Origin: an uncultured Arenicella sp.
GTDB taxonomy: Bacteria; Pseudomonadota; Gammaproteobacteria; Arenicellales; Arenicellaceae
Length of the DNA: 64,000 nt
Assembly (NCBI GenBank): GCA_947499305.1
Contig: CANMNN010000016.1
Coordinates: 8,614 to 72,613, forward strand
Reading direction: 5' to 3'
Shown: piece after piece, positions 8,237 to 25,779 of the stretch
Layout: every line of letters starts with the position of its first letter
How positions within the stretch are numbered: position 1 is the first letter of the stretch
The notes under the pieces: generated by a model
Database searches by the model: none
What the model saw: the letters and a program-made list of their open reading frames with translations, nothing else
What the model was told of the DNA's origin: nothing
Translations under genes and position numbers: made by a program

Positions 8237-11152
8237 ATGCTCAGACTAAGAAAACTCACTACTATTACCTTTTACGCCGCGTTTCTATTGTTATTGCAAG
8301 CGTGTTCATCATCCGAAAATACAGAGAATGGAGCCGAAGAAAACTGGCAGTGGGAAGTAGTCACTACCCAAGGCAAGCCGACGGCTCGCCACGAGGCATC
8401 GTTCCTAGAGCATCAAGGGTTGTTGTATTTACTCGGTGGCCGACGTATTAACCCCGTTGATGTATTTGACCCTAAAACATCCGCATGGACTGCGAAGTCG
8501 CAAACGCCTTTAGAAATTCACCACTTTCAAGCGGTTTCGGTTGGCGACGCGATTTACATTGTTGGTGCGATGACAGGCCAATATCCTAACGAAACGCCAT
8601 TAGCAAATGTGATTGCCTACTATCCGGCAAGTGATACGTTTGAAACACTGCATGAGATCCCCGAATCGCGCCGGCGTGGCGGAGCAGGCGCGGTGGTTTA
8701 TAACGATAAGATCTATATTGTTGGTGGCATTAAAAACGGTCATGTAGACGGCTATGTTCCCTGGCTTGACGAGTACGATCCAGCAACCGGCGAATGGACC
8801 GCCCTACCTGACGCGAGCTTTGCGAGAGATCATGTGCAGGCGGTCGTTCAAAACGACAAACTCTACGTATTTGGAGGCCGCACCAGTCGGCAGCGCACAA
8901 ATCAAGTTCTTGAGCTGCTTGTGAAATACGGCGAGACGTTTGATTTGAAAACCAAGCGTTGGGCTCCTGTAAAGCAAAGCATGGCCTTGCCGACCTTAAG
9001 AGCGGGTAATAGTTTATTAGCCTGGGGTGACGAAATAATAGTGGCCGGTGGAGAGAGTCATACTCAGGAATTGTCGCATTTTGAGATGGACAGTTTTAAC
9101 ACCGCAAGCCAAACCTGGAGTCGTTGGCCCGACTCTATCGCGGCTCGTCATGGAACGGGTTTTGCCGTATCCGGTGACTACGTTTATATCGCTTCTGGCT
9201 CGGCAAATCGCGGTGGCGGCCCTGAGCTGGATACCATTGAACGACTAAAACTGCCACAAAATAACAAGCCCGCAGTTGCTATTCCAAGCACGTCAACAAG
9301 CGCGACAGCGGACGAAGGCTTAGATGTTCATCAAAACTGGCATACTGTAACCATCGACTTTGACGGCCCTGAGTTATCTGAGACTGGCACTCCAAACCCC
9401 TTTACTGATTATCGGCTTGATGTTGTGTTTGTGAATCAACTTGGTAAACGAACCGTGCGCGGGTTTTACGCGGCTGACGGTGATGCGGCAAATACTAGTG
9501 CTGACAGTGGCAAAGTATGGCGAGTTCGGTTTACCCCACACATAAAAGGAAAGTGGGGGTACACAGCGGTGTTACGCGCAGGGAAGGATATCGCGATTGG
9601 CGAAAACCTAGATACCGCTCAAGCGATAGAGATTAGCAATGCAAAAGGCGAGTTTTATGTTGTCGACAGTGATAAAGAAATGCCTGACTTTCGAGCCAAA
9701 GGCTTTCTTGCCGCCGACGGCCCATACTTTCGATTTCGCGATAGTGGTGACTATTGGATAAAAGCAGGTGCGAATAGTCCTGAGAACATCTTAGGCTTTC
9801 ACGAGTTTGACGGCACCTATCAACACGGCTCGAACGACCGTGATGGAGAAGCCGCGACTAGTGATCAACTTCATCGTTTTGAACCCCACCTCAAAGATTG
9901 GCAAATAGGCGATCCAACTTGGCAGAACGGTAAAGGTAAAGCACTTATTGGCGCCTACAACTATCTCGCATCACAGGGCATGAATAGTAATTACTTTCTG
10001 ACCATGAACATTGATGGCGATGGTAAAGACGTATGGCCGTTTGTAAGCCACGATGATTTCACGCGCTTTGATGTGAGCAAGTTAGCACAATGGAATATCG
10101 TATTTGAGCACATGCAATCAAAGGGCATTCTATTACACGCCACTATTCAAGAAACCGAGAATGAACGCTTGTTTGATGACGGCGAAATGGGCTCTCAACG
10201 AAAGCTCTATCTAAGCGAATTGATCGCACGCTTTAGTCACCATCCTGCTTTGGTTTGGAACCTCGGTGAAGAAAATGGCCCAGTACCCTTTTCTCCCATT
10301 GGTCAAAACGATCAACAGCGCAAAGACATGTCGAGCTACTTCGAGGAGTCCGACCCCTATGGCCACCCAGTGCTCTTGCACACGCACTCTACGCCAAAAC
10401 ATAAAGAAGAGATAGTGGCTCCACAACTTGGCCATGCGCCGCTTGATGGTCTTTCGTTTCAAGTAGAAAAACGTGCGATGGTTAATGGTGAAATTCAAAA
10501 ATGGCGCGCAAAGTCAAAGGCTGCTGGAAATGAATGGCTAATAAGCATGGATGAGATCGGCACTTGGCAACACGGTGCGATTACCGACGCTGAAGACCCA
10601 GATCACGAGCGCCTTCGTCATTGGGTGCTATGGGGAACATTACTCGGTGGTGGTGCCGGTGTTGAATGGTACTTTGGTGCCAAGCATGAAGGTACCGATT
10701 TAACGACTGAAGACTGGCGTCCACGCGAGCGACTTTGGGAGCTAAGTAACCATGCCAGAAGTTTCTTTGAAAACTATGTTCCGTTTTGGGAAATGGCGTC
10801 AAATAACGCTTTAATTTCGCAGGAAGGCGACTCCGAGCAATTGCCAGAAAATCATCCCGAAAACGGCGGACCTAGCGGCGATGTTGTGCTGACCGATGTT
10901 GGTCAAAAACCAGCACTGGCCTTTGCAAAAGAAGGAGAGGTTTATGTTGGCTATCTCAGCCGCGTTGAAGGCACGACACTCGATCTAAGCTCGGCAAGTG
11001 GCGACTTTAGTTTACGTTGGTTTGATCCACTAAATGGCGGCGAACTGCAAACTGGCGAAATTGGCATGCTCACCGGCGGCTCCGAGGTCAGTTTAGGCAA
11101 AGCACCGACCGACGCTAAACAAGATTGGGTGATATTGGTTAGCAAGCTCTAA
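8237..11152 (+). CDS. Lipoprotein: Kelch beta-propeller + DUF5060-like + glycoside-hydrolase-like barrel + C-terminal beta domain
   Basis: Lipobox LQAC; Kelch repeats (YLLGG, IYIVGG, LYVFGG, YIASG); NPFTDYRLDVVF / GFYAADG / WRVRFTP; LVWNLGEEN; LRWFDPLNGG tail. Confidence 0.75.
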   Translation: MLRLRKLTTITFYAAFLLLLQACSSSENTENGAEENWQWEVVTTQGKPTARHEASFLEHQGLLYLLGGRRINPVDVFDPKTSAWTAKSQTPLEIHHFQAVSVGDAIYIVGAMTGQYPNETPLANVIAYYPASDTFETLHEIPESRRRGGAGAVVYNDKIYIVGGIKNGHVDGYVPWLDEYDPATGEWTALPDASFARDHVQAVVQNDKLYVFGGRTSRQRTNQVLELLVKYGETFDLKTKRWAPVKQSMALPTLRAGNSLLAWGDEIIVAGGESHTQELSHFEMDSFNTASQTWSRWPDSIAARHGTGFAVSGDYVYIASGSANRGGGPELDTIERLKLPQNNKPAVAIPSTSTSATADEGLDVHQNWHTVTIDFDGPELSETGTPNPFTDYRLDVVFVNQLGKRTVRGFYAADGDAANTSADSGKVWRVRFTPHIKGKWGYTAVLRAGKDIAIGENLDTAQAIEISNAKGEFYVVDSDKEMPDFRAKGFLAADGPYFRFRDSGDYWIKAGANSPENILGFHEFDGTYQHGSNDRDGEAATSDQLHRFEPHLKDWQIGDPTWQNGKGKALIGAYNYLASQGMNSNYFLTMNIDGDGKDVWPFVSHDDFTRFDVSKLAQWNIVFEHMQSKGILLHATIQETENERLFDDGEMGSQRKLYLSELIARFSHHPALVWNLGEENGPVPFSPIGQNDQQRKDMSSYFEESDPYGHPVLLHTHSTPKHKEEIVAPQLGHAPLDGLSFQVEKRAMVNGEIQKWRAKSKAAGNEWLISMDEIGTWQHGAITDAEDPDHERLRHWVLWGTLLGGGAGVEWYFGAKHEGTDLTTEDWRPRERLWELSNHARSFFENYVPFWEMASNNALISQEGDSEQLPENHPENGGPSGDVVLTDVGQKPALAFAKEGEVYVGYLSRVEGTTLDLSSASGDFSLRWFDPLNGGELQTGEIGMLTGGSEVSLGKAPTDAKQDWVILVSKL

Positions 11153-11567: not shown

Positions 11568-12515
11568 TTAATTTGGTCGATTTAGTGTCGTGAAAGTCTG
11601 TCCTTTTAATTCTATATTTACATATTTCTTGGCCATCGTTTCTAGCTCTTTAAATCGATAAACAGGAATTTCTAAAGATAATTTCTCGATAATTCGTGCC
11701 TTTAAGGGATCCGGTTGAGGCACCATTTCTCGATGAACAAGCCAGTTGAAGAGTGATTTTTCGTTGCCGATTTCGCCACGCTTTAAAACGGCGTTAGAGT
11801 TGTTCAAGTAGTGCAGGCCGAGGAAAGCCGCCGCGTCAGTGCTTCCGTTTTGAAGAGCTTTTTCAGCGTAACCTACTTGGCTAGATGTGAATTTATTTAA
11901 CGCGATCATATTAAGCTCTTCGTTACGATCTAAGATGCCGTCAATATGGTAGGGGGCGGCCATAGCATATTCCATCATGCTTTCTAAATCGCCCGTGTCT
12001 GCTGCCATTTTGAAAAATCTAACAGACTCTTTAATCTGAGCCGTACTTAGTCCTTTGCAGATACTGTACCCTTTAGTTATTGCTTCTAAAGGATGAGAGA
12101 CACTATTCGTTATTTCTTTTTTGTAGTCTTCCTTTGAGCGAGCTTGAAGAGCGCAGAATTGCAGTGTTTTCCCTAGGACAAGCGCTGCATCTAGATCACC
12201 AGAATTTGCTAGCTTGACCCATTGCTCATAGTCGGACGATAAGCCATCGGTTATACCCCCCTTTTGCTTTAAAAATTCGACGCTTTTGGGGGTTAGGTTC
12301 TCAGCAGTTTTCTCTTTAGATCCACTTATGTCAAACTCACTAATTAATGTTTCAGCGTCTTGGCTCGCCTTTTTTGGTAAGTCTGTTAACCGGTTTTTTT
12401 GAGCCGAATTCTTTTTATTTAGTTCATTAAGGCTAATTGCTGCGTCTTTTTGAAAATAGGCGACGCAAGCGGCAGAGACTAGTGCAATCAGCGCGAAGGG
12501 AAAAATAACTTTCAT
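11568..12515 (-). CDS. Secreted or membrane-anchored hypothetical protein with Sel1-like repeats
   Basis: N-terminal hydrophobic leader; LANSGDLDAALVLG, FKMAADTGDLESMMEYA and ALQNGSTDAAAFLG resemble Sel1 repeats. Confidence 0.7.
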   Translation of the reverse strand: MKVIFPFALIALVSAACVAYFQKDAAISLNELNKKNSAQKNRLTDLPKKASQDAETLISEFDISGSKEKTAENLTPKSVEFLKQKGGITDGLSSDYEQWVKLANSGDLDAALVLGKTLQFCALQARSKEDYKKEITNSVSHPLEAITKGYSICKGLSTAQIKESVRFFKMAADTGDLESMMEYAMAAPYHIDGILDRNEELNMIALNKFTSSQVGYAEKALQNGSTDAAAFLGLHYLNNSNAVLKRGEIGNEKSLFNWLVHREMVPQPDPLKARIIEKLSLEIPVYRFKELETMAKKYVNIELKGQTFTTLNRPN

Positions 12516-14799: not shown

Positions 14800-15393
14800 T
14801 TGTTGAATAGTCAGCAAGCTGCGCAGGATGACTCAGGCGCGTTAATGGTAACAAGGATTGGCGAGGGCGATGCTCTGGCTGAAAGCGCTCTCGTTAATAA
14901 GTACTACAAAAGCCTGCATTTCATCTTAATGCGACGTTGCAATAATGACGAACAGCTAGCCGCCGATATAGCCCAAGACGCATTCATCGTGGTGATTAAC
15001 AAAGCCCGCGAAAAGAAAATAAATTCGCCAGAGGCCATTGCGGCCTTTATACGTCAAACAGGCGTTAATCTGATGATTGCTCATTTTAGAAAAGAAACTC
15101 GCCGTGCTACTGACACCTATGGCGAAGTAAGCATCGAAGTACCGGACATAACAACAAACGTCTCACGTGCTGTTGAGTCAAATCAAACTCTAGGTCTAGT
15201 TCAACAATTGATCGAAGAAATGAAGGTCGAGCGCGACCGCGATATCTTGCTAAGTTATTACGCCAAAGAAGAAGAGAAGAGCAGTATCTGTAACCGCTTA
15301 GAGTTAACGCCAGCGCATTTCGACCGGGTGTTATTCAGAGCAAGGAGCCGACTAAAGCAATTGATCGACTTCAAGATAGGAGGGCAACAATGA
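14800..15393 (+). CDS. ECF-type RNA polymerase sigma factor
   Basis: Region 2 (AADIAQDAFIVVI...AFIRQTGVNLMIAHFRK) and region 4 (RDRDILLSYY...ICNRLELTPAHFDRVLFRARSRLK); no regions 1 or 3; TTG start. Confidence 0.9.
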   Translation: MLNSQQAAQDDSGALMVTRIGEGDALAESALVNKYYKSLHFILMRRCNNDEQLAADIAQDAFIVVINKAREKKINSPEAIAAFIRQTGVNLMIAHFRKETRRATDTYGEVSIEVPDITTNVSRAVESNQTLGLVQQLIEEMKVERDRDILLSYYAKEEEKSSICNRLELTPAHFDRVLFRARSRLKQLIDFKIGGQQ

Positions 15394-15536
15394 ACCCAAC
15401 TATAAAAAAAATATCTATAAAGATGAGAGAACAAGCAAGTACTTGTCACTCAACAGCCAGAAGTACACATAAAAGTGCACCGAAGTTAGGGGAATTACTC
15501 CGAGGTTGTTATGCGGAGGGGCATTATTATGGATAA
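15390..15536 (+). CDS. 48-aa sORF translationally coupled to the sigma and anti-sigma-like genes
   Basis: AGGAGG RBS then ATG overlapping the sigma stop (ATGA); its TAA overlaps the next gene start. MNPTIKKISIKMREQASTCHSTARSTHKSAPKLGELLRGCYAEGHYYG. Confidence 0.5.
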   Translation: MNPTIKKISIKMREQASTCHSTARSTHKSAPKLGELLRGCYAEGHYYG

Positions 15537-16173
15537 AAAGTACATTCAAGATAACGAAATAGATATTAAGTATTTGCGCGGACAATTGGCTGATGATGAG
15601 CTTGAGTTGTTTGAGATTTATTTGATGGAGAATCCGGAGGCGTTGGAGCAACTAGAGGTAGATTCTCTTTTGCTGACTACGAAAGTAAAAGGCCATAAAG
15701 AAGCTACGAGCTTGTTTTCGAAATTTAAAAAGTCATTAACCCCGATACTTGCGATTGCGTTTTCTATTGTTGCAACAGCTATTCTTGTAGTGATACCAAG
15801 CAATAACAAAAACAATTTGACCGCGGTCTACACTTTAGAGCTTGAGAACTTAAGAAGTACCAGTCCCGTTGAAAGTCCGAATCAGTTGTTCCTTGAAAGG
15901 CTAGAACAATCAAAAGAAATTGATTTGACTTTCTTTCTGGCTGCAGAAGTTCCTGAAGTCGATGTAAGGCTGTTTAAGGTTGATAAGAATTCAGCGAAAG
16001 CTTGTGATGGAGACGGGGATCTAGTTTTTACATCAAATGTAGCTGTAGCAGAATCGAAATATTCTTTTTTGGTGCCCCCATCAAAATTTAATAGTGGTGA
16101 ATACGTTGTTTGTGCTTTTACCGCTGAGAGTTTGATAATTCAATATCGAGTGAGTGTTGTTAAAGAAAAATAA
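15529..16173 (+). CDS. Putative anti-sigma factor (N-terminal helical domain, one TM, periplasmic domain)
   Basis: YLRGQLADDELELFEIYL resembles a zinc-free anti-sigma domain; TM LTPILAIAFSIVATAILVVIP; directly downstream of the ECF. Start taken at ATG 15529 (GGAGGGG RBS); track gave 15511. Confidence 0.65.
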   Translation: MDKKYIQDNEIDIKYLRGQLADDELELFEIYLMENPEALEQLEVDSLLLTTKVKGHKEATSLFSKFKKSLTPILAIAFSIVATAILVVIPSNNKNNLTAVYTLELENLRSTSPVESPNQLFLERLEQSKEIDLTFFLAAEVPEVDVRLFKVDKNSAKACDGDGDLVFTSNVAVAESKYSFLVPPSKFNSGEYVVCAFTAESLIIQYRVSVVKEK

Positions 16174-16190
16174 ATATATGAGGATTAGGT

Positions 16191-17834
16191 ATGGGGTCTG
16201 GAGATGATGCTGGCGAAAAAAAATACGAATACACACGAGGCGCAACTGACTATTTAGATAGTCAATGGGATGCAATAAATAGAGGAAATCAACGAGATTT
16301 AGAAGCGCTGCAAAAAGACCAGTCTCGATCACCTTTCTCGGAGCAGAATTCTATAATCGAGGCAGTAAGGGCCGAGAGATTTTTCCCGAATATGCCAATA
16401 ACATGGGAAATAGAAGAGTATGAATTGTTTAAAGACGATTCTGTTTCTAGTTGTGTGTGTAAGTTGAATGATGCTGCGGTTGAGGCTATTGCTGAAGCCA
16501 TGTTCAAACTACCGAATAACGTGCGTGCGCGTCTGCAGCCGGCCGGATATACCTATTTTTCCCAGCTTCTCACTCATGACATTGTTCCCAGTACTACTTT
16601 ATCTAAGTATGCTAAGACCTCGTCAGCGCTAAACCTAGATAGCATTTACTTTGACTTCGCGGAGTTAAATCGATGGGGAGGTGTGAATGATGATGGAACG
16701 TTTGTTTTTACTCTTTGTGACACCGACCTTTGGAGAGAAAAATGGACAGTCGACGAAATCGAATGTAGCGGAATTAAAGTAGAGGCTAATCGAACCGAGC
16801 CGTATCATTTTGCAGTTGTGCCTGAACATCGCAACGATGGAAATACTATATTGTCTCAGCTTCATTTGTTGCTACAAAAAGCGCACAATCATATTGTACA
16901 TTTGCTCAAACACGCTGATAGCAATAAGAAAGGGTTTGAATATTTTGAAAAAGCGAAAGAAATTTTGGTGCTCCTTTTCCAAAAATTATGTATCAACGAT
17001 CTCTTGAAGGTCACCATCGACCCCGATACTTATGATTATTATTTTGAGCATAATGGGTCGAGCCTTTTCCCAAAATTAGGTATGGCGGGAGCGGTGCCGA
17101 AAGAATTCACTCATGCTGTGTCCCGTTATTCGCATACTATGATTCGCCCTCGCTATAAAATCAATCATAGAGATGTTACAGGGACTCTAGTTGAAGATAT
17201 TTTCGCTAAAAACAGGCCAATAGATAAAGATCTTGTTATCGACGATTGGGACCTCTTTTTCGATAAACCATGGGTCAATATTCCTAACGCTGTAAACAAG
17301 GCACAAAAAATTGAATTGCGGGCGGCAAAGCTAGGAGTTTCAAGTGGGCCAATTGATAATCGTAGGAACCCATCCAAGAATCTAGCTACGTTTGATATTG
17401 CTGCATCCAGAGAATTGTGTACGTTCTCTAGTGTTATGCGAAATAAGAATGTTCGACTGTTTTTAGAGCATGTCAAAGGCGTCGATGCCCAAAGTTATTT
17501 TGGTCGAATTGACTACTCTAAAATCAATAAAAAGTTAGCGACACTTCCTGGTGAGAGGGTTGAATTAGACAACTTAAATTCTCCGTTTTTGCTGTCGATG
17601 CTATTGGAGTCGCATGCTATGCCTCAATTACATAATAGAGATCGACTCGGAGTTGTTGGAAGTATTGTCTATGCCGAAACAATAAGAGAGTGTGTTAACA
17701 ATGCCGAAATCAATATCTTTCAGAATAACAAGATTTTGATGGATAGACTTGATTGGGGTTATTTGACTTATGAACATCTTTTAACCTCTATTAACCCTTT
17801 GAACCTGCGGAATCTTGCAAGATTAAACCTTTAG
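16191..17834 (+). CDS. Heme peroxidase, peroxidase-cyclooxygenase (An_peroxidase-like) superfamily, divergent
   Basis: GYTYFSQLLTHDI (distal Q/H), LNLDSIY, RNDGNTILSQLH (distal R), PKEF...SRYSHTMIRPRY (proximal H), RLGVVGSIVYAE. Confidence 0.8.
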   Translation: MGSGDDAGEKKYEYTRGATDYLDSQWDAINRGNQRDLEALQKDQSRSPFSEQNSIIEAVRAERFFPNMPITWEIEEYELFKDDSVSSCVCKLNDAAVEAIAEAMFKLPNNVRARLQPAGYTYFSQLLTHDIVPSTTLSKYAKTSSALNLDSIYFDFAELNRWGGVNDDGTFVFTLCDTDLWREKWTVDEIECSGIKVEANRTEPYHFAVVPEHRNDGNTILSQLHLLLQKAHNHIVHLLKHADSNKKGFEYFEKAKEILVLLFQKLCINDLLKVTIDPDTYDYYFEHNGSSLFPKLGMAGAVPKEFTHAVSRYSHTMIRPRYKINHRDVTGTLVEDIFAKNRPIDKDLVIDDWDLFFDKPWVNIPNAVNKAQKIELRAAKLGVSSGPIDNRRNPSKNLATFDIAASRELCTFSSVMRNKNVRLFLEHVKGVDAQSYFGRIDYSKINKKLATLPGERVELDNLNSPFLLSMLLESHAMPQLHNRDRLGVVGSIVYAETIRECVNNAEINIFQNNKILMDRLDWGYLTYEHLLTSINPLNLRNLARLNL

Positions 17835-17847
17835 AATCGGAGTAAAA

Positions 17848-18420
17848 ATGAGCGAACAAGACTATATGAAGTGGAATACAGAAAAGGCTGCGAGTAGCGG
17901 TGTAACGAAGGCGCATCTTAGCGCAATTACAGCTTGGGCGGGTGGTATCTCTGGACATAGAATCTGGGGTGCGATAAATCAATACCTACCAAGTAACATA
18001 AACACTCAACCACCGGAAACATTTAAGGCCTTTAGTGTAACAACTCGTTACAGTAAGGACGATGAGAAAGGCTATGAGGGGATTGAACTTATACTCAACG
18101 AAGAGCGTAACCAAGAATCAGAGTGGGGCAATGAATTCATTAAGCTTGCTGAGCTTGTAGTCTTCCAGCTTACGGATGATAACGAAGATGAGCTCAAGGC
18201 GAAGGCGAGAGATGGTGGTAAAATAGAAAATGTAGCAAGCGCTATTTCAGAATTTAACGGCTTTACGCTCAAAAATTGGACTTTGAAATATCGCAAAGAT
18301 AATCAATTCGACGGTAACAGTTATTTTGGGGGATTATCAGTTATGCTCTGGGAGCACAAGGATAGTGGTCAGGAGAGCGTGCTATCTTGGAGCTATATTC
18401 CTTATGTCTCACCAAAGTAA
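17848..18420 (+). CDS. Hypothetical cytoplasmic protein
   Basis: 190-aa ORF 13 nt after the peroxidase, GGAG RBS; no recognisable motif or signal peptide. Confidence 0.75.
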   Translation: MSEQDYMKWNTEKAASSGVTKAHLSAITAWAGGISGHRIWGAINQYLPSNINTQPPETFKAFSVTTRYSKDDEKGYEGIELILNEERNQESEWGNEFIKLAELVVFQLTDDNEDELKAKARDGGKIENVASAISEFNGFTLKNWTLKYRKDNQFDGNSYFGGLSVMLWEHKDSGQESVLSWSYIPYVSPK

Positions 18421-18499
18421 ATCTATTTTTGGATGCCATTATTCCTAGTAACTACTGAAATAGCTCTAATAAGCAATTTTATTATTGCTGATTTGTAAC

Positions 18500-21400
18500 A
18501 TGTTTTTCAGAAGTAAAACAATAGCTTGTTTATCAACTATTTTGATTGGAGTGATGTTCGCGAGCAGTGCTGCTGCCAAACAGCACTCTCTGGAATCGAA
18601 TTTAAAAAAGCCTAATTTAGTACTTGTAAAGGGCATTGATTCTCAAGGTATAACGTTTAAAACAGCGGACAAGCAATCATCGTTCGCCTTTCCGATTTTG
18701 GGTTCAAACACTTTACTCGGTTGGTATTTCCAACCTGCCAATGAGCCTCAAAAATACCACTCTGTTGAAAGTGAGAATGTTGGTAAAGCACCAAACAATG
18801 CGATTCAGGTTCTCGACACGAAAATCAGAAAAACTGAGCTAGTGGCTTGGGCGCCATTGCTTAATAAAATTACAGAATCATTAGAACGTATTTCCGAGTT
18901 AGGCGTTGTAGAGAGTCGTGCTCAAATAGAAGTGTTGAGTGAACTTATCGTAAAGCTACCAGCGAATATCCAAGATGAATTACAGATTGATCTTTTGACT
19001 AGTCGCTTGTTGTTTGATGCGGGTTTGACTAAGAAGTCGTTGATGGTATCGATTGATGCAGAATCTTGTTTAATAGAATTAGTGGCATTTTCGGAATATT
19101 GTTTTGAGTTATTGAGGACTCGCGCGAATGCTCTAGAAAGAGTTGGAAAATTTAAATTAGCGAGAAATTTACAAGTATCGACAGTCCAAGCTTTATCGAG
19201 TTTAGAAAAGACCGATAACCAACTCTCACGTCTAATAATTATGAAGGCGAGTGCTGAGCAGCTAAATGTGCATATAGCCGTGGCGGCATCAGATGCAGAA
19301 AGTGTGAAAGCAAGTATCACTAACTTGAAGACAATTTTAAAGGAAGAAGAGTCGCGTAATTTGTTGAACCTTTATCAAAAAGGTCTTATCAATTTGATGA
19401 TCGGTTCTGCTCTTATTAGAGGTGGTGAATTAGAAAACTCAGTGAAGCCTCTTTTAAACGCCGAGAGACAGTTTAGGGAGAGTGGTAATCATGCCTATCT
19501 CACCTCAGTTTACTCTCTATTGCATACCACTAATTACCTCCAAGGGCGCTATCTTCCGGCCTTAGATATGATCACCTTAGCTCTTGAATTAGTGAATGAA
19601 GAATCACCTTTATATTATTACTACTTGCTTGTTCAAGGTAGTGCGTTGGCGAAGCTCGGGAGATATCAACAGGCGAAGGCTAGTTTGATAACTGCGATGA
19701 GTTTTTATGAATCAAATCAAAATCCATACTATCTATCCGGATGCTATCGTGCCTTAGCCGTGGTCGAACGCGAACTTGGAAATTATGATGTCGCCAATAA
19801 GCTTCACGATTCAGCTATAACCATGTTTTTAGGAGAAGACCACAATAACCCCAGCAACTTACATTCATTTTTAGCAACCAGGTCTGAGAGTTTGATGACA
19901 GCCTTGCGACAAGGTGACTTGAAGCAGTCGCGTAAGTATGTAGTGGAATTAGAATCTTCATATAAAAAATTTCTTGAATCTAAAGACTCCTCGAAAAGTC
20001 TGCCGGAAAAAACCGTTCTGTATGCTTTAGCGAGTTATGCCACTTCAATTGGTGATTCAAACAGCTTAGTTAAGTATCGCGATAAACTTGCTTACGTATT
20101 AAATGAAACTCCAGCAGATTCGTATTCACTGGAAAAGGCTCGATTAGAACAGCTAAATCTTATTGAAGACCTGCAACAGGATGACCTTATTGCTGCCGCA
20201 AGTCACTTTCAAGCGCTAATGTCGCACGTTAATAGAACGCGTGATCGAGTGCGAGTTGTATCTTTTCAGCGTGGATACTCTAATTTAGTAAAAGGTTTCG
20301 CCGAGCCATTGATTGAAAAATTAGCCTTGAGTTTAGAGCATAAATGGGTGGCTGAGAAAGCCGATGCTCTGCTGAGAGTTTTAAGCCAAATTCAAGGGGC
20401 AACTGTTGTTGAAGCGTCAAGAGCAGCGCGGAGTCGGATTGCAAGAGGGGCAGTGATGGAGACTAGCTCATCAGATGATAGCTTGAGTAAAGAGGTGGAG
20501 GTATTTACTGCACAAAATGAGAAAGAGAGCTATGCTTTGAGAGCTCGGGCAGACCATAGTGTACTAAGAGAGAATGTTCTCCAAGCTCTGTCATTAGAGG
20601 ATTCGCCAGATAGCTTTGTTGAACAGATCGAGAGCGTAACTTCGCTAGTTGAAAAGTTAAGGGGTGATGAGATCTACTTGAATTCGTTCAACACTAAGAC
20701 GCACACCTACCTACTTTATTTAAGTAAATTCCAAAAGGGTGTTGTTGCTGTTGAAAGAACTAAGGATCTTGATCGAATAGTTGCCTCGGCGAATCAAATG
20801 CTGATCGATCGGTATTCAGAGCCGCAGAAAATACTTGAACGAATAGGTAGTCTATTTTCGCTGAACAAGGTACTAGCTGGGGATAAATATCGGCACGCCA
20901 TTACGACAGGCGACGGCAAATTTTCAGACATACCGTTCTCGACGCTTAGCCTAAATGAGCAATATTTGGGTACTTATATTTCTAATACTCACGTTACATC
21001 TACGAGCTATTATTTTGCGCCTAGAGAAGCGTTTGACATTGAAAAGGTACTCACCAACGATGTTGCCGTTATTGCCGACCCAAATTTTAATGGCAGTAAC
21101 TTAATGAGCCTTACTCGCGGAGTGTCAGACGAGAATTTTCAAAACTGGATTTCTTCGTTGAGTCGGCTCCCATGGACGGCCAAAGAATCGCAGTCTATTA
21201 GTGCGGCGTTTCCCGATGCTCAGATTGCGTTGAGAACCAAAGAAGATGCAACCAGTGAGAGTCTCAGAGACTTGGCTTCCACCAGCACCATACTGCATAT
21301 AGCTACGCATGGTTATTTTAGCTCGAGGACTCCTGAACTTGCCGGGTTAGCCCTAACTGAAACAGCTAGCCTTAGCTCAGGATTTCTCTCGTCAAATCAA

Positions 21401-21748
21401 CTATCTAAACTTGATATTGCTTCTCGCTTAGTTGTTTTCAGTGCGTGTGAAACGGCCCTTTCAGAAGAGTCTGCTGGAGATAGTGGCTGGGGACTGGCCC
21501 AAGTTGCCCTTTACGCGGGAGCAAGAAATGCGGTTGGAACACTTTGGAAAGTGCCGGACCGACAAACAGCTCTATTTTTTGATAGTTTTTACAATAAGCT
21601 TTCAGATGGCCGAAGCGACGTCTCCACCGCATTACTAGAAGCGAAAAAGATCATGGCTAATTCGCGTTACTCTCATCCATTCTACTGGGCTGGCTTCAAA
21701 GCATTTGCGAGCAAACGAATAGATACCGAGCCATTTGATTTTCAGTAA
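18500..21748 (+). CDS. Exported TPR-CHAT (caspase-like, clan CD) protease
   Basis: Signal peptide MFFRSKTIACLSTILIGVMFASSAAA; central TPR-like helices; CHAT dyad ILHIATHG and LVVFSACET; LWKVPD and HPFYWAGF. Track start was 18485. Confidence 0.9.
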   Translation: MFFRSKTIACLSTILIGVMFASSAAAKQHSLESNLKKPNLVLVKGIDSQGITFKTADKQSSFAFPILGSNTLLGWYFQPANEPQKYHSVESENVGKAPNNAIQVLDTKIRKTELVAWAPLLNKITESLERISELGVVESRAQIEVLSELIVKLPANIQDELQIDLLTSRLLFDAGLTKKSLMVSIDAESCLIELVAFSEYCFELLRTRANALERVGKFKLARNLQVSTVQALSSLEKTDNQLSRLIIMKASAEQLNVHIAVAASDAESVKASITNLKTILKEEESRNLLNLYQKGLINLMIGSALIRGGELENSVKPLLNAERQFRESGNHAYLTSVYSLLHTTNYLQGRYLPALDMITLALELVNEESPLYYYYLLVQGSALAKLGRYQQAKASLITAMSFYESNQNPYYLSGCYRALAVVERELGNYDVANKLHDSAITMFLGEDHNNPSNLHSFLATRSESLMTALRQGDLKQSRKYVVELESSYKKFLESKDSSKSLPEKTVLYALASYATSIGDSNSLVKYRDKLAYVLNETPADSYSLEKARLEQLNLIEDLQQDDLIAAASHFQALMSHVNRTRDRVRVVSFQRGYSNLVKGFAEPLIEKLALSLEHKWVAEKADALLRVLSQIQGATVVEASRAARSRIARGAVMETSSSDDSLSKEVEVFTAQNEKESYALRARADHSVLRENVLQALSLEDSPDSFVEQIESVTSLVEKLRGDEIYLNSFNTKTHTYLLYLSKFQKGVVAVERTKDLDRIVASANQMLIDRYSEPQKILERIGSLFSLNKVLAGDKYRHAITTGDGKFSDIPFSTLSLNEQYLGTYISNTHVTSTSYYFAPREAFDIEKVLTNDVAVIADPNFNGSNLMSLTRGVSDENFQNWISSLSRLPWTAKESQSISAAFPDAQIALRTKEDATSESLRDLASTSTILHIATHGYFSSRTPELAGLALTETASLSSGFLSSNQLSKLDIASRLVVFSACETALSEESAGDSGWGLAQVALYAGARNAVGTLWKVPDRQTALFFDSFYNKLSDGRSDVSTALLEAKKIMANSRYSHPFYWAGFKAFASKRIDTEPFDFQ

Positions 21749-22948: not shown

Positions 22949-23098
22949 AGTAGTATTTAATTGATAGTTTTAGGGGTCTTGCGAAAATTACAATAACACA
23001 GACGAATCAATAATTTGCCAAGCGCAAATTATTGCTATCATTATCGACCGCTCAAGTGAGCAGGGCACTGCCAAGAGCCAAAAATGCGAGAATATAGA

Positions 23099-23446
23099 AT
23101 GAGTCAGATAGAAACTTTATTGGGTCGAATACAGAAATTTGCTGAAGAGCGCGACTGGGAACAATTTCATTCTCCTAAAAATATCAGCATGGCGTTGGCG
23201 GTTGAGGCATCTGAGTTGCTCGAGCATTTTCAATGGATGAGCCAAGAGGAATCTCGCAATATTCAAGGCGATAAAAAGCAAGAAGTCGCCGATGAAGTGG
23301 CTGATGTTTTTCTATATCTATTAAGAATGTGTGAGCAACTTGATATCGATTTGATTGAGGCAGCGAATCAAAAGATAGATAAAAATGCAATCAAGTACCC
23401 AGTAGAGAAATCCAAGGGCCGCTCGACTAAATACAATGAGCTCTAA
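23099..23446 (+). CDS. MazG-like nucleotide pyrophosphohydrolase
   Basis: FAEERDWEQFHSPKNISMALAVEASELLEHFQW and EVADEVADV. Track start was 23084. Confidence 0.9.
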   Translation: MSQIETLLGRIQKFAEERDWEQFHSPKNISMALAVEASELLEHFQWMSQEESRNIQGDKKQEVADEVADVFLYLLRMCEQLDIDLIEAANQKIDKNAIKYPVEKSKGRSTKYNEL

Positions 23447-25779
23447 TGAATGCATCAGAGCTGAAGAAAATTTGCATAGAGGGATCAACGCGGCTGTATG
23501 AGCATGTTTCCAAGCGTCGAAATGGCGGTGCGCAGGAGATTGCTGTTGCTGATATCGAAATCGTAGATACCCATGAATTCAAGCTAAAGTTATCTCGAAC
23601 AATTTTCGACTTAGATTCCATTCGTTTCGTGTATACCGATATCGAAAGGCGCTACCTTGAGAGCGATGAGCTTAGCATTGCGGTTTATGATCACGAGCAG
23701 CGTTTTGTTATTGTGAAAACCAGCTCTGAGGTGGCCGATTTACTCAAGGAAAGTATTGAACACCCTGATAACTGGATACTCACCTTTGATCTAAAGTTTC
23801 TAATTAAGCGTGTGATCGAATGGTATGAAGCGCATGGTGATGGTCTTCGATTTCTCAATGGCCGAAAATCGTCTGCACTAAACTTTGATACCTCTCTTGT
23901 TTTTTCGGATGCACAGCCCAGTGAGGAACAGGCCCGCGCTATTGACGCCTGTTTTAATCAACCCTTAAGTTACATCTGGGGTGCACCTGGTACCGGGAAA
24001 ACTCGTTTTGTATTGAGCTATGCATTGCTTAATTACCTGAACAACGATTCAAAAGTGTTGGTGCTCGCGCCTACCAATTTAGCTCTAGAGCAAATCTTTA
24101 GAGGTATCGTAGGCGTACTCCAACGAGCTAAGATTGATCGCCGTAAGCTATTGCGACTCGGCACTCCTACTAAGGCGTTTGCTAAGGACTATGGTGAAAT
24201 TTGTGAAGACAAAGGTTTAGATGTAAAGCTGGCTCAGCTTAATCGCCAGATTGAAATCTTAGAATCTATTCAAATGATCGATCAACGTGACGGGCCAACT
24301 CTGCTTGAAATGATAAGAGAGCTACAGTGGCTAGACAAGCGTCAAAAATTGGTGCGCATTAGTGATGCAAAGCTGGCCAAGCTACAAGCTGAAATTGATT
24401 CGGCGAGTGATACGCAAAGTGCTTTGAGCAATTCAATTAAAGCGCATATGAAGGCGCTCGATGCGTCGATAACAAACCCAGTTAAGCATGCAACGATCGA
24501 GGAATCTCAAGCCAAGTTGATTGCTAAGTTACAACAGAGTAAACACAAGCTTGATGATAATCTCACTCGCTATAAGAGCATCGATGGAGATGTCTCCAGC
24601 TTGCGTAAAATCGTAAACAAGCGCCTCAACAAGGTTCAGTCATTGGCGAGGAAATGTGGGCTGGAAGATACTGAATTAAGTTTGTCGAATATACAAAGTC
24701 TGGAGCAAGAAGCGTTATCAAGCCGAGCTCGGCTGTTTTCAATGGCACAGGAGTATGAGCAGTTTGCTGAAAGTGAAATGGCGGATAAGTTAAAGCACTA
24801 CAAGAGCGACGCAATTACTCTTAAGTCTTATACAAGCGAAGCCCGCTTGAATAGTGCGGGTGTAGTCGGTATGACCCTCGACTCATATATTGCTCGGAGC
24901 AAAGACAAACCTATTGATGCTGATCATATTTTCATCGATGAGGCGGGCTACGCCAGCGCTATTAAAACGCTCACTGCATTTGCGAGTGACGTGCCTATCA
25001 CATTCCTCGGTGATCATAAGCAACTACCGCCAGTATGCGAAATGGCACGGGATGAAATTCTCAAAGCCGATGCTGATAACGCGGTTCTTATGTGGGATCT
25101 GTCGGCTATTTTCTGTGAATCAATTTGGTGTTCGAATTCTTTCGCGAGCGTGGTAGAAAACTATAAAGATCAACGCTCTCCAGTCTTTAACGAACTTAAG
25201 AGGCGAGCGCTGACTAAAAGCTATCGCTTTGGTAAAAAGCTTGCGTCGGTATTGCATCAACATGTCTATATCGAAGAGGGCTTTTGTTCGGGCCTAGAGC
25301 ACGATACACAAATAAGTGTCTTTAATGTTGATAATCGGGCCTTTGTCGGTGAAGGAGATTTCGGCCGTCGGGCTAATACTGCAGAGGCAAATTGCGTTAT
25401 TAAAATTCTTGATTCAGGCATTTTAGAAAATGATGATTTTGCTATATTGACCCCGTATCGTGACCAAGTTTCATTGCTAGCAAAGTTAAAACCTGAGCTC
25501 GCTGAGCAAGGTCGCCTGCTCACAGTACATAAGTCACAAGGTCGAGAGTGGCACACGGTGATCTATAATGTGTGCGACATTGGCAATGGTGCTCATCCGT
25601 GGTTTACCGATTCGAGAAACGACCTATCTAGCGGATTATCAAATGTGAATACCGCCGTTAGTCGAGCCAAAAAGCATTTGATTATTGTTTGTGATTCTAA
25701 GGCTTGGCAGGCAAAGGATAGTCAATTGATCTCTGGTTTAATCGACGCAAGAACTAGACGCTATCAATACCAGGCTTAG
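23446..25779 (+). CDS. SF1 helicase, UPF1/DNA2-NAM7-like (AAA_11/AAA_12), with coiled-coil insert
   Basis: WGAPGTGKT, FIDEAG, LGDHKQLPP, LTKSYRF, ILTPYRDQV, TVHKSQGRE, NTAVSRAK; TAATG overlap with the MazG gene. Confidence 0.9.
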   Translation: MNASELKKICIEGSTRLYEHVSKRRNGGAQEIAVADIEIVDTHEFKLKLSRTIFDLDSIRFVYTDIERRYLESDELSIAVYDHEQRFVIVKTSSEVADLLKESIEHPDNWILTFDLKFLIKRVIEWYEAHGDGLRFLNGRKSSALNFDTSLVFSDAQPSEEQARAIDACFNQPLSYIWGAPGTGKTRFVLSYALLNYLNNDSKVLVLAPTNLALEQIFRGIVGVLQRAKIDRRKLLRLGTPTKAFAKDYGEICEDKGLDVKLAQLNRQIEILESIQMIDQRDGPTLLEMIRELQWLDKRQKLVRISDAKLAKLQAEIDSASDTQSALSNSIKAHMKALDASITNPVKHATIEESQAKLIAKLQQSKHKLDDNLTRYKSIDGDVSSLRKIVNKRLNKVQSLARKCGLEDTELSLSNIQSLEQEALSSRARLFSMAQEYEQFAESEMADKLKHYKSDAITLKSYTSEARLNSAGVVGMTLDSYIARSKDKPIDADHIFIDEAGYASAIKTLTAFASDVPITFLGDHKQLPPVCEMARDEILKADADNAVLMWDLSAIFCESIWCSNSFASVVENYKDQRSPVFNELKRRALTKSYRFGKKLASVLHQHVYIEEGFCSGLEHDTQISVFNVDNRAFVGEGDFGRRANTAEANCVIKILDSGILENDDFAILTPYRDQVSLLAKLKPELAEQGRLLTVHKSQGREWHTVIYNVCDIGNGAHPWFTDSRNDLSSGLSNVNTAVSRAKKHLIIVCDSKAWQAKDSQLISGLIDARTRRYQYQA

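What the first reader, a model, noticed from the sequence alone, without database searches (positions are those of the whole stretch)
14800..21748. Candidate novel system: ECF sigma / anti-sigma / heme peroxidase / exported TPR-CHAT caspase-like protease operon
Seen: six co-oriented, tightly coupled genes (overlaps of 4 and 8 nt; gaps of 17, 13 and about 80 nt). They encode an ECF sigma, an sORF, a single-pass anti-sigma-like protein, a peroxidase, an orphan, and a CHAT protease with an intact His/Cys dyad and a signal peptide. Known: in type III-E CRISPR systems the TPR-CHAT Csx29 cleaves Csx30 to release a sigma factor, and CHAT proteases activate bacterial gasdermins. Inference: this is a CRISPR-independent, trans-envelope version. 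A periplasmic TPR sensor-protease would cut the anti-sigma's periplasmic domain, in the role DegS plays for RseA, freeing the sigma to drive a peroxidase-based stress, defence or cell-death output.
Basis: partly seen in the sequence, partly recalled or inferred. Interest (0 to 1): 0.88.

Follow-up and report, generated by a model that had tools for sequence, protein, structure and literature searches.

The report
Sigma factor operon with exported caspase-like protease
A rare five-gene bacterial operon links a membrane-spanning sigma/anti-sigma switch to an exported caspase-like protease and a cytoplasmic animal-type heme peroxidase. It is real and uncharacterised, but its central idea, a periplasmic TPR-CHAT protease controlling an ECF sigma factor, already has a published precedent in DdvA of Myxococcus.

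Summary
Domain calls hold for the ECF sigma, the single-pass anti-sigma-like protein, the An_peroxidase with intact heme residues, the family-restricted orphan, and the Sec-exported TPR-CHAT (H942/C988).

The 48-aa sORF is probably not a gene. It shows no third-codon-position bias and is absent in one lineage. That spacer instead carries an invariant motif, TGAGAGA-N15-TCAC, 80-86 nt upstream of every anti-sigma gene. This is a candidate ECF promoter.

The five genes co-occur in the same order wherever a peroxidase homologue of 31% identity or more was found. That covers about 8-9 distinct alleles, at least five flanking contexts, and two Arenicella MAGs.

The locus is a mosaic. Sigma and the anti-sigma N-terminus are conserved (94-97%). 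A 4.4-kb cassette is only about 50% identical at DNA level (27-49% at protein level) between syntenic relatives. It holds the anti-sigma periplasmic part, the peroxidase, the orphan and the N-terminal half of CHAT.

CHAT cleaving the anti-sigma is topologically the only intra-operon option, but it is untested. A fused equivalent, DdvA/DdvS, was published in 2024. The output function, and any role in defence, remain unknown.

Verdict: new variant of a known kind.

The parts
14800..15393 (+). ECF-type sigma factor, 197 aa. It is the most conserved gene of the locus.
   Evidence: TIGR02937 scores 58.7 bits against a cut-off of 42.9, covering residues 28-188; Sigma70_r2 2.4e-7. It is 94-97% identical to L001 and L003, and 68-72% to L008, L011, L012 and L010.
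15394..15528 (+). Conserved spacer between the sigma and anti-sigma genes.
   Evidence: There is no third-codon-position bias in the sORF frame. L002 has no ORF here and L010 only a shorter one. DNA blocks are conserved. A weak consensus hairpin pairs CAYAWAAGTGCACC with the SD/ATG region.
15424..15449 (+). Bipartite motif TGAGAGA-N15-TCAC. It is a candidate ECF-dependent promoter for the anti-sigma, peroxidase, orphan and CHAT genes.
   Evidence: It is exact in 7 stored locus entries (5 distinct loci once L004 and L009 are counted with L003 and L002) and in L011, and has one mismatch in L012. It occurs once per locus, always 80-86 nt upstream of the anti-sigma ATG. It is unique in the 64-kb window even with one mismatch allowed. 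Nothing similar lies within 400 nt upstream of the sigma gene. Promoter function is inferred.
15529..16173 (+). Single-pass (N-in) anti-sigma-like protein, 214 aa. Residues 1-45 form a conserved cytoplasmic helical domain. The TM helix is residues 71-89 (15739-15795). A conserved juxtamembrane island, ELENLRS, is residues 104-110 (15838-15858). The periplasmic domain is variable and carries two Cys.
   Evidence: There is no Pfam, NCBIfam or PDB match. TM position and charge distribution. N-terminal identity tracks sigma identity (r = 0.95-0.96). E104 and N107 are invariant within an otherwise divergent periplasmic part.
16191..17834 (+). Cytoplasmic heme peroxidase of the peroxidase-cyclooxygenase (An_peroxidase) superfamily, 547 aa.
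   Evidence: PF03098 1.8e-11. The family profile hits MPO and LPO at 1e-8, aligning SRYxH with FRYGH. Q125, distal H129, D130, R214 and proximal H315 are invariant in 10 homologues. There is no signal peptide or TM segment. Only 10 homologues exist among 5.8 billion proteins.
17848..18420 (+). Family-restricted 190-aa cytoplasmic protein of unknown fold. It is the fastest-evolving gene of the operon.
   Evidence: There are 4 representatives among 1.84 billion proteins. No Pfam, NCBIfam or PADLOC hit. The AF2 model has pLDDT 65.8 and pTM 0.69. The best Foldseek PDB match has E = 0.015 and TM 0.24. Identity to its counterparts in the other loci is 25-33%.
18485..21748 (+). Sec-exported TPR-CHAT caspase-like protease, 1087 aa. 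The likely start is ATG 18500. The catalytic residues are H942 (21308-21310) and C988 (21446-21448).
   Evidence: CHAT 3.9e-46 over residues 799-1073; TPR_12 4.4e-10. The dyad is invariant. Signal peptides are seen in the window, L001, L011, L012 and L010, and in L002 when an upstream GTG start is used. AF2 gives a confident TPR solenoid for residues 200-590, but the CHAT part is poorly modelled.
15570..19996 (.). Variable cassette of about 4.4 kb with lower G+C. It covers the anti-sigma TM and periplasmic part, the peroxidase, the orphan, and the N-terminal roughly 500 aa of CHAT.
   Evidence: DNA identity of the window to the syntenic L003 is mostly 87-100% up to about 15570 and 85-97% from about 19997 on, but roughly 30-65% between those points. 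G+C is 0.40 here against 0.44-0.46 in the flanks. Pairwise identities fall into two independent modules.

Best explanation
This is a dedicated trans-envelope signalling operon, found so far only in a few marine Gammaproteobacteria.

Shown:
- A divergent ECF sigma factor is encoded next to a single-pass, N-in membrane protein. The conserved cytoplasmic N-terminus of that protein co-varies with sigma, so it is the likely cognate anti-sigma.
- The operon always also encodes a cytoplasmic heme peroxidase with intact heme and catalytic residues, a private roughly 160-190-aa cytoplasmic protein, and a Sec-exported TPR-CHAT protease of about 1,070-1,120 aa with an intact His/Cys dyad.
- A bipartite DNA motif is invariant between the sigma and anti-sigma genes.
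- The locus consists of a conserved core (sigma plus the anti-sigma N-terminus) and a swappable, fast-diverging cassette (the anti-sigma periplasmic part, the peroxidase, the orphan and the N-terminal half of CHAT).

Inferred mechanism:
1. In the resting state the anti-sigma sequesters sigma at the membrane.
2. The periplasmic TPR-CHAT senses an envelope or extracellular cue through its variable N-terminal/TPR half.
3. CHAT then clips the anti-sigma on the periplasmic side. The candidate site is the conserved juxtamembrane ELxNLRS island, 15 residues after the TM helix.
4. This acts as the site-1 cut that licenses intramembrane proteolysis and release of sigma.
5. Free sigma transcribes, from the internal TGAGAGA-N15-TCAC element, the unit anti-sigma, peroxidase, orphan, CHAT.
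6. The cytoplasmic peroxidase and its small partner are therefore the induced output, while the anti-sigma and CHAT are replenished as feedback.

What the peroxidase acts on, whether detoxification or production of reactive species, is not known.
For: - Gene content and order are conserved in the window, L001, L003/L004, L008/L011, L012/L013/L014, L002 (=L009), L010, L015 and L016. There are at least five different flanking contexts.
- Every peroxidase homologue of 31% identity or more is in such an operon. The only outlier, P0010 (25% identity, with a signal peptide), is not.
- Domains and catalytic residues.
- Topology. By topology, the anti-sigma periplasmic part is the only operon product accessible to an exported protease.
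- Pairwise identity of sigma and of the anti-sigma N-terminus correlates at r = 0.96. The anti-sigma C-terminus correlates with the CHAT N-half at r = 0.72, and the peroxidase and orphan with the CHAT N-half at r = 0.92-0.96. These two groups are uncorrelated with each other.
- The mosaic breakpoints fall at about 15570, just after the cytoplasmic domain, and at about 19997, in mid-TPR.
- The ELxNLRS island is conserved inside an otherwise 25-54% identical periplasmic part.
- The motif occurs once per locus at a fixed distance from the anti-sigma ATG and is absent upstream of sigma.
- There is no intrinsic terminator-like site between the genes on the + strand.
- Precedent: the periplasmic TPR-CHAT of DdvA was proposed to cut its own linker before RseP acts (PMC11506125).
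Against: - There is no experimental or structural evidence that CHAT binds or cuts the anti-sigma.
- The CHAT model was poor (pLDDT 51.8).
- The 214-aa protein matches no anti-sigma family by sequence and has no zinc motif.
- The motif has an unusual -35-like half (TGAGAGA), and its function as a promoter is inferred from conservation alone.
- Co-variation of the cassette genes could simply reflect one contiguous recombination block. The clearest event is a single pair, window against L003.
- A cytoplasmic MPO-like peroxidase as a sigma output has no known rationale.
Confidence: 0.45

Rival explanations
1. The sigma/anti-sigma pair is controlled by housekeeping proteases of the DegS, Prc or RseP type, or by ligand binding to the anti-sigma's own periplasmic domain. 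Under this reading the exported TPR-CHAT is an output of the regulon, not its trigger. It would be an effector protease acting on envelope or foreign periplasmic proteins, co-induced with the peroxidase.
For: CHAT lies at the distal end of the transcription unit, downstream of the candidate sigma-dependent motif. In ECF neighbourhoods, regulators and targets cannot be told apart from synteny alone, as the ECF classification paper states (PMC7826278). The catalytic half of CHAT does not co-vary with the anti-sigma periplasmic part (r = 0.19).
Against: The anti-sigma periplasmic part co-varies with the CHAT N-terminal half (r = 0.72), and both lie in the same replaced cassette. The conserved juxtamembrane island is unexplained under this reading. 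The DdvA precedent places TPR-CHAT on the input side.
Confidence: 0.25
2. The operon is an ordinary oxidative or halogenative stress response. The ECF pair would sense envelope oxidants and induce a protective cytoplasmic peroxidase. CHAT and the orphan would be accessory quality-control factors with no signalling role.
For: The heme ligands and catalytic Arg are intact. ECF groups with catalase- or peroxidase-type outputs are known from established knowledge of ECF classification. Most loci sit among metabolic genes. There are no PADLOC hits.
Against: A housekeeping stress response would not be expected to be this rare: 10 peroxidase homologues among 5.8 billion proteins. Nor would its enzyme be 48% identical between strains whose flanking genes are 87-94% identical. 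The strict linkage to a 1,087-aa exported caspase-like protease is also unexplained.
Confidence: 0.15
3. The TPR-CHAT acts non-catalytically as a periplasmic co-anti-sigma or sensor, in the manner of RseB. It would bind the anti-sigma's periplasmic domain and shield it from other proteases until a ligand displaces it.
For: The evidence is the same co-variation and cassette linkage. A large TPR solenoid is a typical binding scaffold.
Against: The His/Cys dyad and its surrounding motifs are invariant in all operon copies, including the two Arenicella lineages at 33-37% identity. This argues that catalysis is maintained.
Confidence: 0.1
4. The juxtaposition is fortuitous, or the ORFs are not a functional unit.
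For: None was found.
Against: The order and content are the same in every locus examined, across sigma identities from 46 to 97% and across different flanks.
Confidence: 0.02

Closest known systems
DdvS/DdvA of Myxococcus xanthus: an ECF sigma and a transmembrane anti-sigma with a periplasmic TPR-CHAT (PDB 8ROT/8RW5; PMC11506125, PMC6061681)
   Same: An ECF sigma is held by a single-pass anti-sigma. A TPR-CHAT module with a His/Cys dyad sits on the periplasmic side. The proposed logic is CHAT cleavage of the juxtamembrane linker as the site-1 step, followed by intramembrane proteolysis.
   Different: - Here the TPR-CHAT is a separate, signal-peptide-bearing protein rather than the C-terminus of the anti-sigma.
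- The anti-sigma N-terminus has no Cys, so it cannot form DdvA's CHCC zinc site.
- The CHAT domain is no closer to DdvA (E = 3e-3) than to Csx29 (E = 3e-4).
- The linked genes are a heme peroxidase and an orphan, not CBASS/CRISPR.
- The hosts are Gammaproteobacteria, whereas DdvA-like proteins were reported in Myxococcota and one Comamonas.
- Even for DdvA the cleavage step is a model, not a demonstrated reaction.
Type III-E CRISPR Craspase: Cas7-11, Csx29 (TPR-CHAT), Csx30, Csx31 and RpoE (PMC10028731)
   Same: A TPR-CHAT protease whose cut on a sigma-binding partner frees an ECF-type sigma factor.
   Different: - That system is cytoplasmic, RNA-guided and CRISPR-linked.
- This window has no CRISPR array and no Rfam CRISPR repeat.
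- The Csx29 model scores 19 bits against a cut-off of 300.
- Here the protease is exported.
Regulated proteolysis cascades of sigma-E type: DegS/RseP on RseA, Prc/RseP on FecR-like anti-sigmas, PrsW/RasP on RsiW (established knowledge)
   Same: A periplasmic site-1 cut of a single-pass anti-sigma leads to release of the ECF sigma. This is the functional role proposed for CHAT.
   Different: The site-1 protease would be a clan-CD cysteine protease with a TPR sensor, encoded inside the operon. It would not be a housekeeping serine protease or metalloprotease.
ECF54 group (Actinobacteria), with CHAT, subtilase and carboxypeptidase neighbours (PMC8999054; PMC7826278)
   Same: A genetic association of an ECF sigma with a CHAT-domain protein, which has been interpreted as possible proteolytic control.
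   Different: ECF54 has no anti-sigma and belongs to a different phylum. No peroxidase is reported for it. Assignment of the present sigma to an ECF group could not be tested with the tools at hand.
Peroxidase-cyclooxygenase superfamily: myeloperoxidase, lactoperoxidase, Dictyostelium peroxinectin A (PDB 1CXP, 2IKC, 6ERC)
   Same: The distal Gln/His, the catalytic Arg and the proximal His motif (SRYxH against FRYGH) are shared.
   Different: Similarity is detectable only over about 110-125 residues. The residue before the distal His is Thr rather than the heme-ester Asp. The motif after the Arg is R-N-D rather than R-x-x-E, so covalent heme links are doubtful. The protein has no signal peptide and is therefore cytoplasmic.

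Membership tests
ECF (group IV) sigma-70 family | Sigma-2 and sigma-4 regions only, about 200 aa, scoring above the family threshold | tested here: met
   TIGR02937 scores 58.7 bits against a cut-off of 42.9 and spans residues 28-188. Sigma70_r2 scores 30.9 bits against a cut-off of 24.
ECF sigma / cognate anti-sigma pair | A membrane protein encoded adjacent to sigma, with a cytoplasmic anti-sigma domain that binds it | tested here: inconclusive
   Adjacency, N-in single-TM topology and co-variation of the N-terminus with sigma (r = 0.96) are all met. No anti-sigma family or solved structure matches by sequence. Binding was not testable.
CHAT / clan CD caspase-like cysteine proteases | CHAT domain with a conserved His-Cys catalytic dyad | tested here: met
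   PF12770 3.9e-46. H942 and C988 are invariant in 38 relatives and in all 7 operon copies aligned.
DdvA-type TPR-CHAT anti-sigma factors | Anti-sigma domain, TM helix and periplasmic TPR-CHAT on one polypeptide | tested here: not met
   The anti-sigma-like protein (214 aa) and the TPR-CHAT (1087 aa) are separate genes with two genes between them, in all loci.
DdvA-type TPR-CHAT anti-sigma factors | CHCC zinc-binding anti-sigma domain | tested here: not met
   Residues 1-70 contain no Cys and a single His (sequence).
DdvA-type TPR-CHAT anti-sigma factors | TPR-CHAT located in the periplasm next to a cognate ECF sigma gene | tested here: met
   There is a signal peptide on CHAT and an ECF sigma in the same operon.
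DdvA-type TPR-CHAT anti-sigma factors | Specific sequence kinship of the CHAT domain to DdvA | tested here: not met
   The operon-only profile gives DdvA (8ROT) E = 3e-3 against Csx29 E = 3e-4. DdvA ranks first (1.4e-13) only with a generic TPR-CHAT profile.
Type III-E Craspase (Csx29) | Csx29 equivalog score, and association with Cas7-11 and a CRISPR array | tested here: not met
   NF041237 scores 19.1 bits against a cut-off of 300. The window has no CRISPR repeat family and no array.
CHAT-activated bacterial gasdermin systems | A gasdermin gene adjacent to the protease | tested here: not met
   No operon protein matches a gasdermin family in Pfam or PADLOC.
Peroxidase-cyclooxygenase (An_peroxidase) superfamily | A family score above threshold, with the distal His, catalytic Arg and proximal His | tested here: met
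   PF03098 scores 43.8 bits against a cut-off of 25. H129, R214 and H315 are invariant. The proximal-His motif aligns to MPO. Heme binding itself is not testable here.
Known anti-phage defence systems (PADLOC-DB 2.0) | Any operon protein matching a defence-system model | tested here: not met
   There are zero hits for sigma, anti-sigma, peroxidase, orphan or CHAT at E <= 0.01.

The most novel reading that the evidence does not exclude
The operon could be a new kind of conflict or immunity system. A hypervariable periplasmic caspase-like sensor would detect an invader or a competitor product at the envelope and cut the anti-sigma. This would unleash an ECF sigma whose sole dedicated output is a cytoplasmic animal-type heme peroxidase, kept in check by its private partner protein. 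The peroxidase would then kill or arrest the cell, or the invader, through oxidative or halogenating chemistry. The swappable cassette would be the product of an arms race.
Probability: 0.15. Interest if true: 0.85.

Novelty: new variant of a known kind. Interest (0 to 1): 0.6.

Why it matters
If the mechanism holds, it would be the first split version of the DdvA idea. A free periplasmic caspase-like protease would act as the dedicated site-1 protease of an ECF anti-sigma. This arrangement is easier to dissect biochemically than the fused DdvA, where cleavage has not been demonstrated.

It would also give a first physiological context for a cytoplasmic member of the animal heme-peroxidase superfamily in bacteria.

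The mosaic is a natural experiment on which parts determine specificity. It consists of a conserved sigma/anti-sigma-domain core and a swappable cassette holding the anti-sigma ectodomain, the peroxidase, the orphan and the CHAT sensor half.

Set against this, the system is very rare and is confined to a few marine Gammaproteobacteria. Its output is unknown.

Tried and rejected
- **Homologue search with the anti-sigma.** It timed out twice. The third and last search, with the orphan, returned only the query itself.
- **AF2 model of the full CHAT protein.** With 5 sequences the mean pLDDT was 51.8 and the CHAT domain was below 50. It was therefore not used for fold search, and the DdvA feature of a missing three-helix motif could not be assessed.
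- **AF2 model of the orphan.** pLDDT was 65.8 and Foldseek against the PDB gave no credible match, with best E = 0.015 and TM 0.24.
- **PDB profile searches.** The anti-sigma and the orphan returned only noise. Sigma alone returned nothing. A full-length TPR-CHAT profile was swamped by TPR proteins.
- **Other libraries.** Megablast of the locus against plasmids found no match. The viral contig scan found no relative. Rfam found no family in the window. PADLOC gave no hit for the operon.
- **The sORF as a gene.** Rejected on codon-position statistics and on its absence in L002.
- **A second copy of the motif upstream of sigma (autoregulation).** None was found with up to 2 mismatches in any locus.
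- **The operon as part of a defence island.** Only L002 has TIR and Tle1-like neighbours. L010 and the other loci do not.
- **Literature.** No paper links an An_peroxidase with CHAT or an ECF sigma.
- **Organism.** The organism of the window could not be named. Cluster look-ups carried no names.

Full report

- sigma, 14800-15393;
- the 48-aa ORF, 15390-15536;
- the 214-aa protein, 15529-16173;
- the peroxidase, 16191-17834;
- the 190-aa orphan, 17848-18420;
- CHAT, 18485 (TTG) or 18500 (ATG) to 21748.

The overlaps of 4 and 8 nt and the gaps of 17, 13 and 79 nt are as stated.

Profile searches confirm the domains:
- ECF sigma: TIGR02937, 58.7 bits against a cut-off of 42.9.
- An_peroxidase: 43.8 bits against a cut-off of 25, though only residues 207-329 match.
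- CHAT: 3.9e-46 for residues 799-1073, plus TPR_12.
- The 214-aa and 190-aa proteins match nothing.

A hydropathy scan gives:
- one TM helix in the 214-aa protein (residues 71-89), preceded by a Lys-rich stretch, which indicates N-in topology;
- a hydrophobic N-terminal signal sequence on CHAT;
- no hydrophobic segment in the peroxidase or the orphan.

No terminator-like site separates the genes on the + strand.

**2. One correction: the sORF.**

Among the window, L001, L003 and L008, substitutions in the sORF frame are not concentrated at third codon positions. Window against L008 gives 17/24/19, and L001 against L008 gives 15/25/17. The Arenicella locus L002 has no ORF at that place, and L010 has only a shorter one.

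What is conserved is DNA. TGAGAGA-N15-TCAC is identical in the window and in the seven stored locus entries that carry the operon (five distinct loci once L004 and L009 are counted with L003 and L002), including both Arenicella lineages. It is also exact in L011. It has one mismatch in L012.

The motif occurs once per locus and always lies 80-86 nt upstream of the anti-sigma ATG. Nothing similar, allowing up to 2 mismatches, lies in the 400 nt upstream of any sigma gene. In the 64-kb window it is the only match even with one mismatch allowed, although a single chance match in 64 kb would not itself be surprising. The argument rests on its position and invariance.

In three loci the second half reads CGTCAC, which resembles the CGTC-type -10 element of many ECF promoters. 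That resemblance rests on established knowledge and was not tested here.

I read the motif as a candidate sigma-dependent promoter for the unit anti-sigma, peroxidase, orphan, CHAT. This is an inference.

A weak consensus hairpin (-5.4 kcal/mol, little covariation) would pair a conserved 5'-UTR block with the SD/ATG of the anti-sigma gene. This also explains the apparent HKSAP conservation in the sORF frame.

**3. Do the genes co-occur?**

Yes, strictly.

The peroxidase family is tiny, with 10 proteins among 5.8 billion. The orphan family has 4 representatives among 1.84 billion. Only four full-length relatives of the CHAT protein were found.

Every contig that carries a peroxidase homologue of 31% identity or more shows the same genes in the same order, as far as the contig reaches:
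- L001 (GCA_041156785.1) and L003/L004;
- L008, an uncultured gammaproteobacterial MAG, and L011;
- L012, L013 and L014;
- L002 (=L009), an Arenicella sp. MAG;
- L010, a second Arenicella;
- L015 and L016.

The flanking genes differ between groups:
- the window, L003 and the right flank of L001: GSDH and MazG-like on the right, with xylulokinase on the left in the window and L003, whereas in L001 the operon directly follows an ABC transporter gene;
- L011: hydantoinase, ADH and MFS;
- L012: Lipase_3;
- L002: TIR, WD40 and Tle1-like proteins;
- L010: acyltransferase-SGNH and NfeD.

The only distant peroxidase relative, P0010 (25% identity), has a signal peptide and no such neighbours.

No relative was found on viral contigs or plasmids.

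**4. What the parts look like.**

*Peroxidase.* An alignment of ten homologues shows Q125, H129 and D130 (the distal QxxxHD), R214, N215 and D216 (the catalytic Arg), and A309, R312 and H315 (SRYxH) to be invariant. A family profile aligns SRYAH to FRYGH of myeloperoxidase, which is the proximal-His motif. The heme machinery therefore looks intact. The residue before the distal His is Thr, not the Asp that makes an ester link in MPO and LPO. All operon peroxidases begin with Met-Gly and lack any export signal.

*CHAT.* The N-terminal half is a TPR solenoid. AF2 is confident for residues 200-590, but the CHAT part was poorly modelled with only 5 sequences. A profile of the operon CHAT domains finds Csx29 (3e-4) and DdvA (3e-3) about equally. 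The domain is therefore a CHAT protease with no special kinship to either.

*Orphan.* The model is of medium confidence (pLDDT 65.8, pTM 0.69) and shows an alpha/beta fold with a long antiparallel sheet. It has no structural match.

*Anti-sigma-like protein.* The N-terminal roughly 45 residues are highly conserved (MDKKYIQENEIDIKYLRGQL..EL..FE.YL.ENPE). The periplasmic part is only 25-54% identical to its counterparts, apart from an island, ELENLRS (residues 104-110), 15 residues beyond the TM helix. E104 and N107 are invariant. The island fits the separase-type ExxR pattern quoted in PMC11506125. That is a lead, not a test.

**5. An unexpected feature: a mosaic locus.**

The window and L003 are syntenic. 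Their flanking proteins are 92-94% identical, and those of the window and L001 are 87-93% identical. Sigma is 94-97% identical. By contrast, against L001 and L003 the anti-sigma is 49-50% identical, the peroxidase 48-49%, the orphan 27-30% and CHAT 57-70%.

A sliding DNA comparison shows sharp breakpoints. Identity to L003 is mostly 87-100% up to about 15570, which is just after the cytoplasmic domain of the anti-sigma. It is roughly 30-65% from there to about 19996, and 85-97% again from about 19997, which is mid-TPR of CHAT, to the end. G+C in the block is 0.40 against 0.44-0.46 around it.

Across the five non-Arenicella loci, pairwise identities fall into two modules:
- sigma and the anti-sigma N-terminus (r = 0.96);
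- the anti-sigma C-terminus, the peroxidase, the orphan and the CHAT N-half (r = 0.49-0.98).

The two modules are uncorrelated with each other (r between about -0.2 and 0.2).

So a conserved signalling core carries an exchangeable, strongly diverged cassette. This is compatible with diversifying selection or with allele exchange at a sensing or conflict interface. It could also be the footprint of a few recombination events. I did not compute dN/dS, because synonymous sites would be saturated.

**6. Mechanism.**

Shown: the gene set, the topology, the catalytic residues, the conserved motif and the mosaic.

Inferred: that the 214-aa protein sequesters sigma; that the exported TPR-CHAT is the dedicated site-1 protease; that the motif is the sigma's promoter; and that the peroxidase and orphan are the output.

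The topological argument is the strongest. If the protease acts on any operon product, it can only be the periplasmic part of the anti-sigma.

The rival readings cannot be excluded without experiments. They are that CHAT is an output effector, that the operon is a plain oxidative-stress response, and that CHAT acts as a non-catalytic co-anti-sigma.

**7. Comparison with what is known.**

A closer precedent exists. Myxococcus xanthus DdvA is a transmembrane anti-sigma whose periplasmic domain is a TPR-CHAT. Its cryo-EM structure (8ROT) led to the model of CHAT autoproteolysis of the linker followed by RseP (PMC11506125). That paper reports DdvA-like fused proteins only in Myxococcota and one Comamonas.

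ECF54 sigmas in Actinobacteria have also been noted to have CHAT-domain neighbours (PMC8999054).

The present operon differs from these in several ways:
- it is split into two genes;
- it lacks the zinc anti-sigma motif;
- it is strictly linked to a cytoplasmic heme peroxidase and a private small protein;
- its candidate promoter lies downstream of the sigma gene;
- it has a swappable cassette.

It is not a member of the DdvA, Craspase or gasdermin families, because defining features were tested and not met. It may still work like DdvA is proposed to work.

No paper in the library links An_peroxidase with CHAT or with ECF sigmas. No PADLOC model matches.

**8. Verdict.**

The operon is real, conserved, uncharacterised and very rare.

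Novelty: new variant of a known kind. Interest: 0.6. Most of the interest comes from the split sensor-protease/anti-sigma design, which makes the DdvA-type model directly testable. The rest comes from the unexplained cytoplasmic animal-type peroxidase and from the mosaic cassette.

Noticed in passing
window 23446-25779 (+), next to 23084-23446 (+): A 777-aa SF1 helicase (AAA_11/AAA_12; PADLOC MkoA 2.8e-33) starts on the last base of the stop codon of a MazG-like gene. The syntenic loci L001 and L003 have the MazG-like gene but no helicase, going straight on to LpxR. The helicase therefore looks like an insertion, possibly defence-related, 1.7 kb downstream of the operon.
   Followed up: partly
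L002 1-6234 and 15895-20032: In the Arenicella MAG the operon is flanked by several TIR-domain proteins (CAP12-PCTIR_TIR, TIR-WD40, TIR_2) and a Tle1-like protein. This is a defence- or conflict-island-like setting that is not seen at the other loci.
   Followed up: no
L002 9326-10000: The anti-sigma gene of L002 appears frameshifted or truncated at 177 aa. Its missing C-terminus reads in another frame. The closely related L015 has an intact 221-aa gene. This is probably an assembly error in a 9x long-read MAG.
   Followed up: partly
window 15470-15534: A conserved 5'-UTR block (CACATAAAAGTGCACC) can pair with the Shine-Dalgarno/ATG region of the anti-sigma gene. The consensus hairpin is weak (-5.4 kcal/mol) and shows almost no covariation. 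It may control translation.
   Followed up: partly
window 16191-16196, and the homologues in alignment A1: All nine operon-linked peroxidases start with Met-Gly, followed by a variable, acidic or polar stretch of about 100 aa. The conserved Gly2 is unexplained.
   Followed up: no
window 11568-12515 (-): A 315-aa ORF with a signal-peptide-like N-terminus has no Pfam or PADLOC match. It lies between a Kelch/DUF5060 protein (8237-11152) and xylulokinase. The Kelch gene is present in L003 but absent in L001.
   Followed up: no
window 55267-55311: The only tandem repeat in the window is three perfect copies of a 15-nt unit, CTAAATTCACCTCTG.
   Followed up: no
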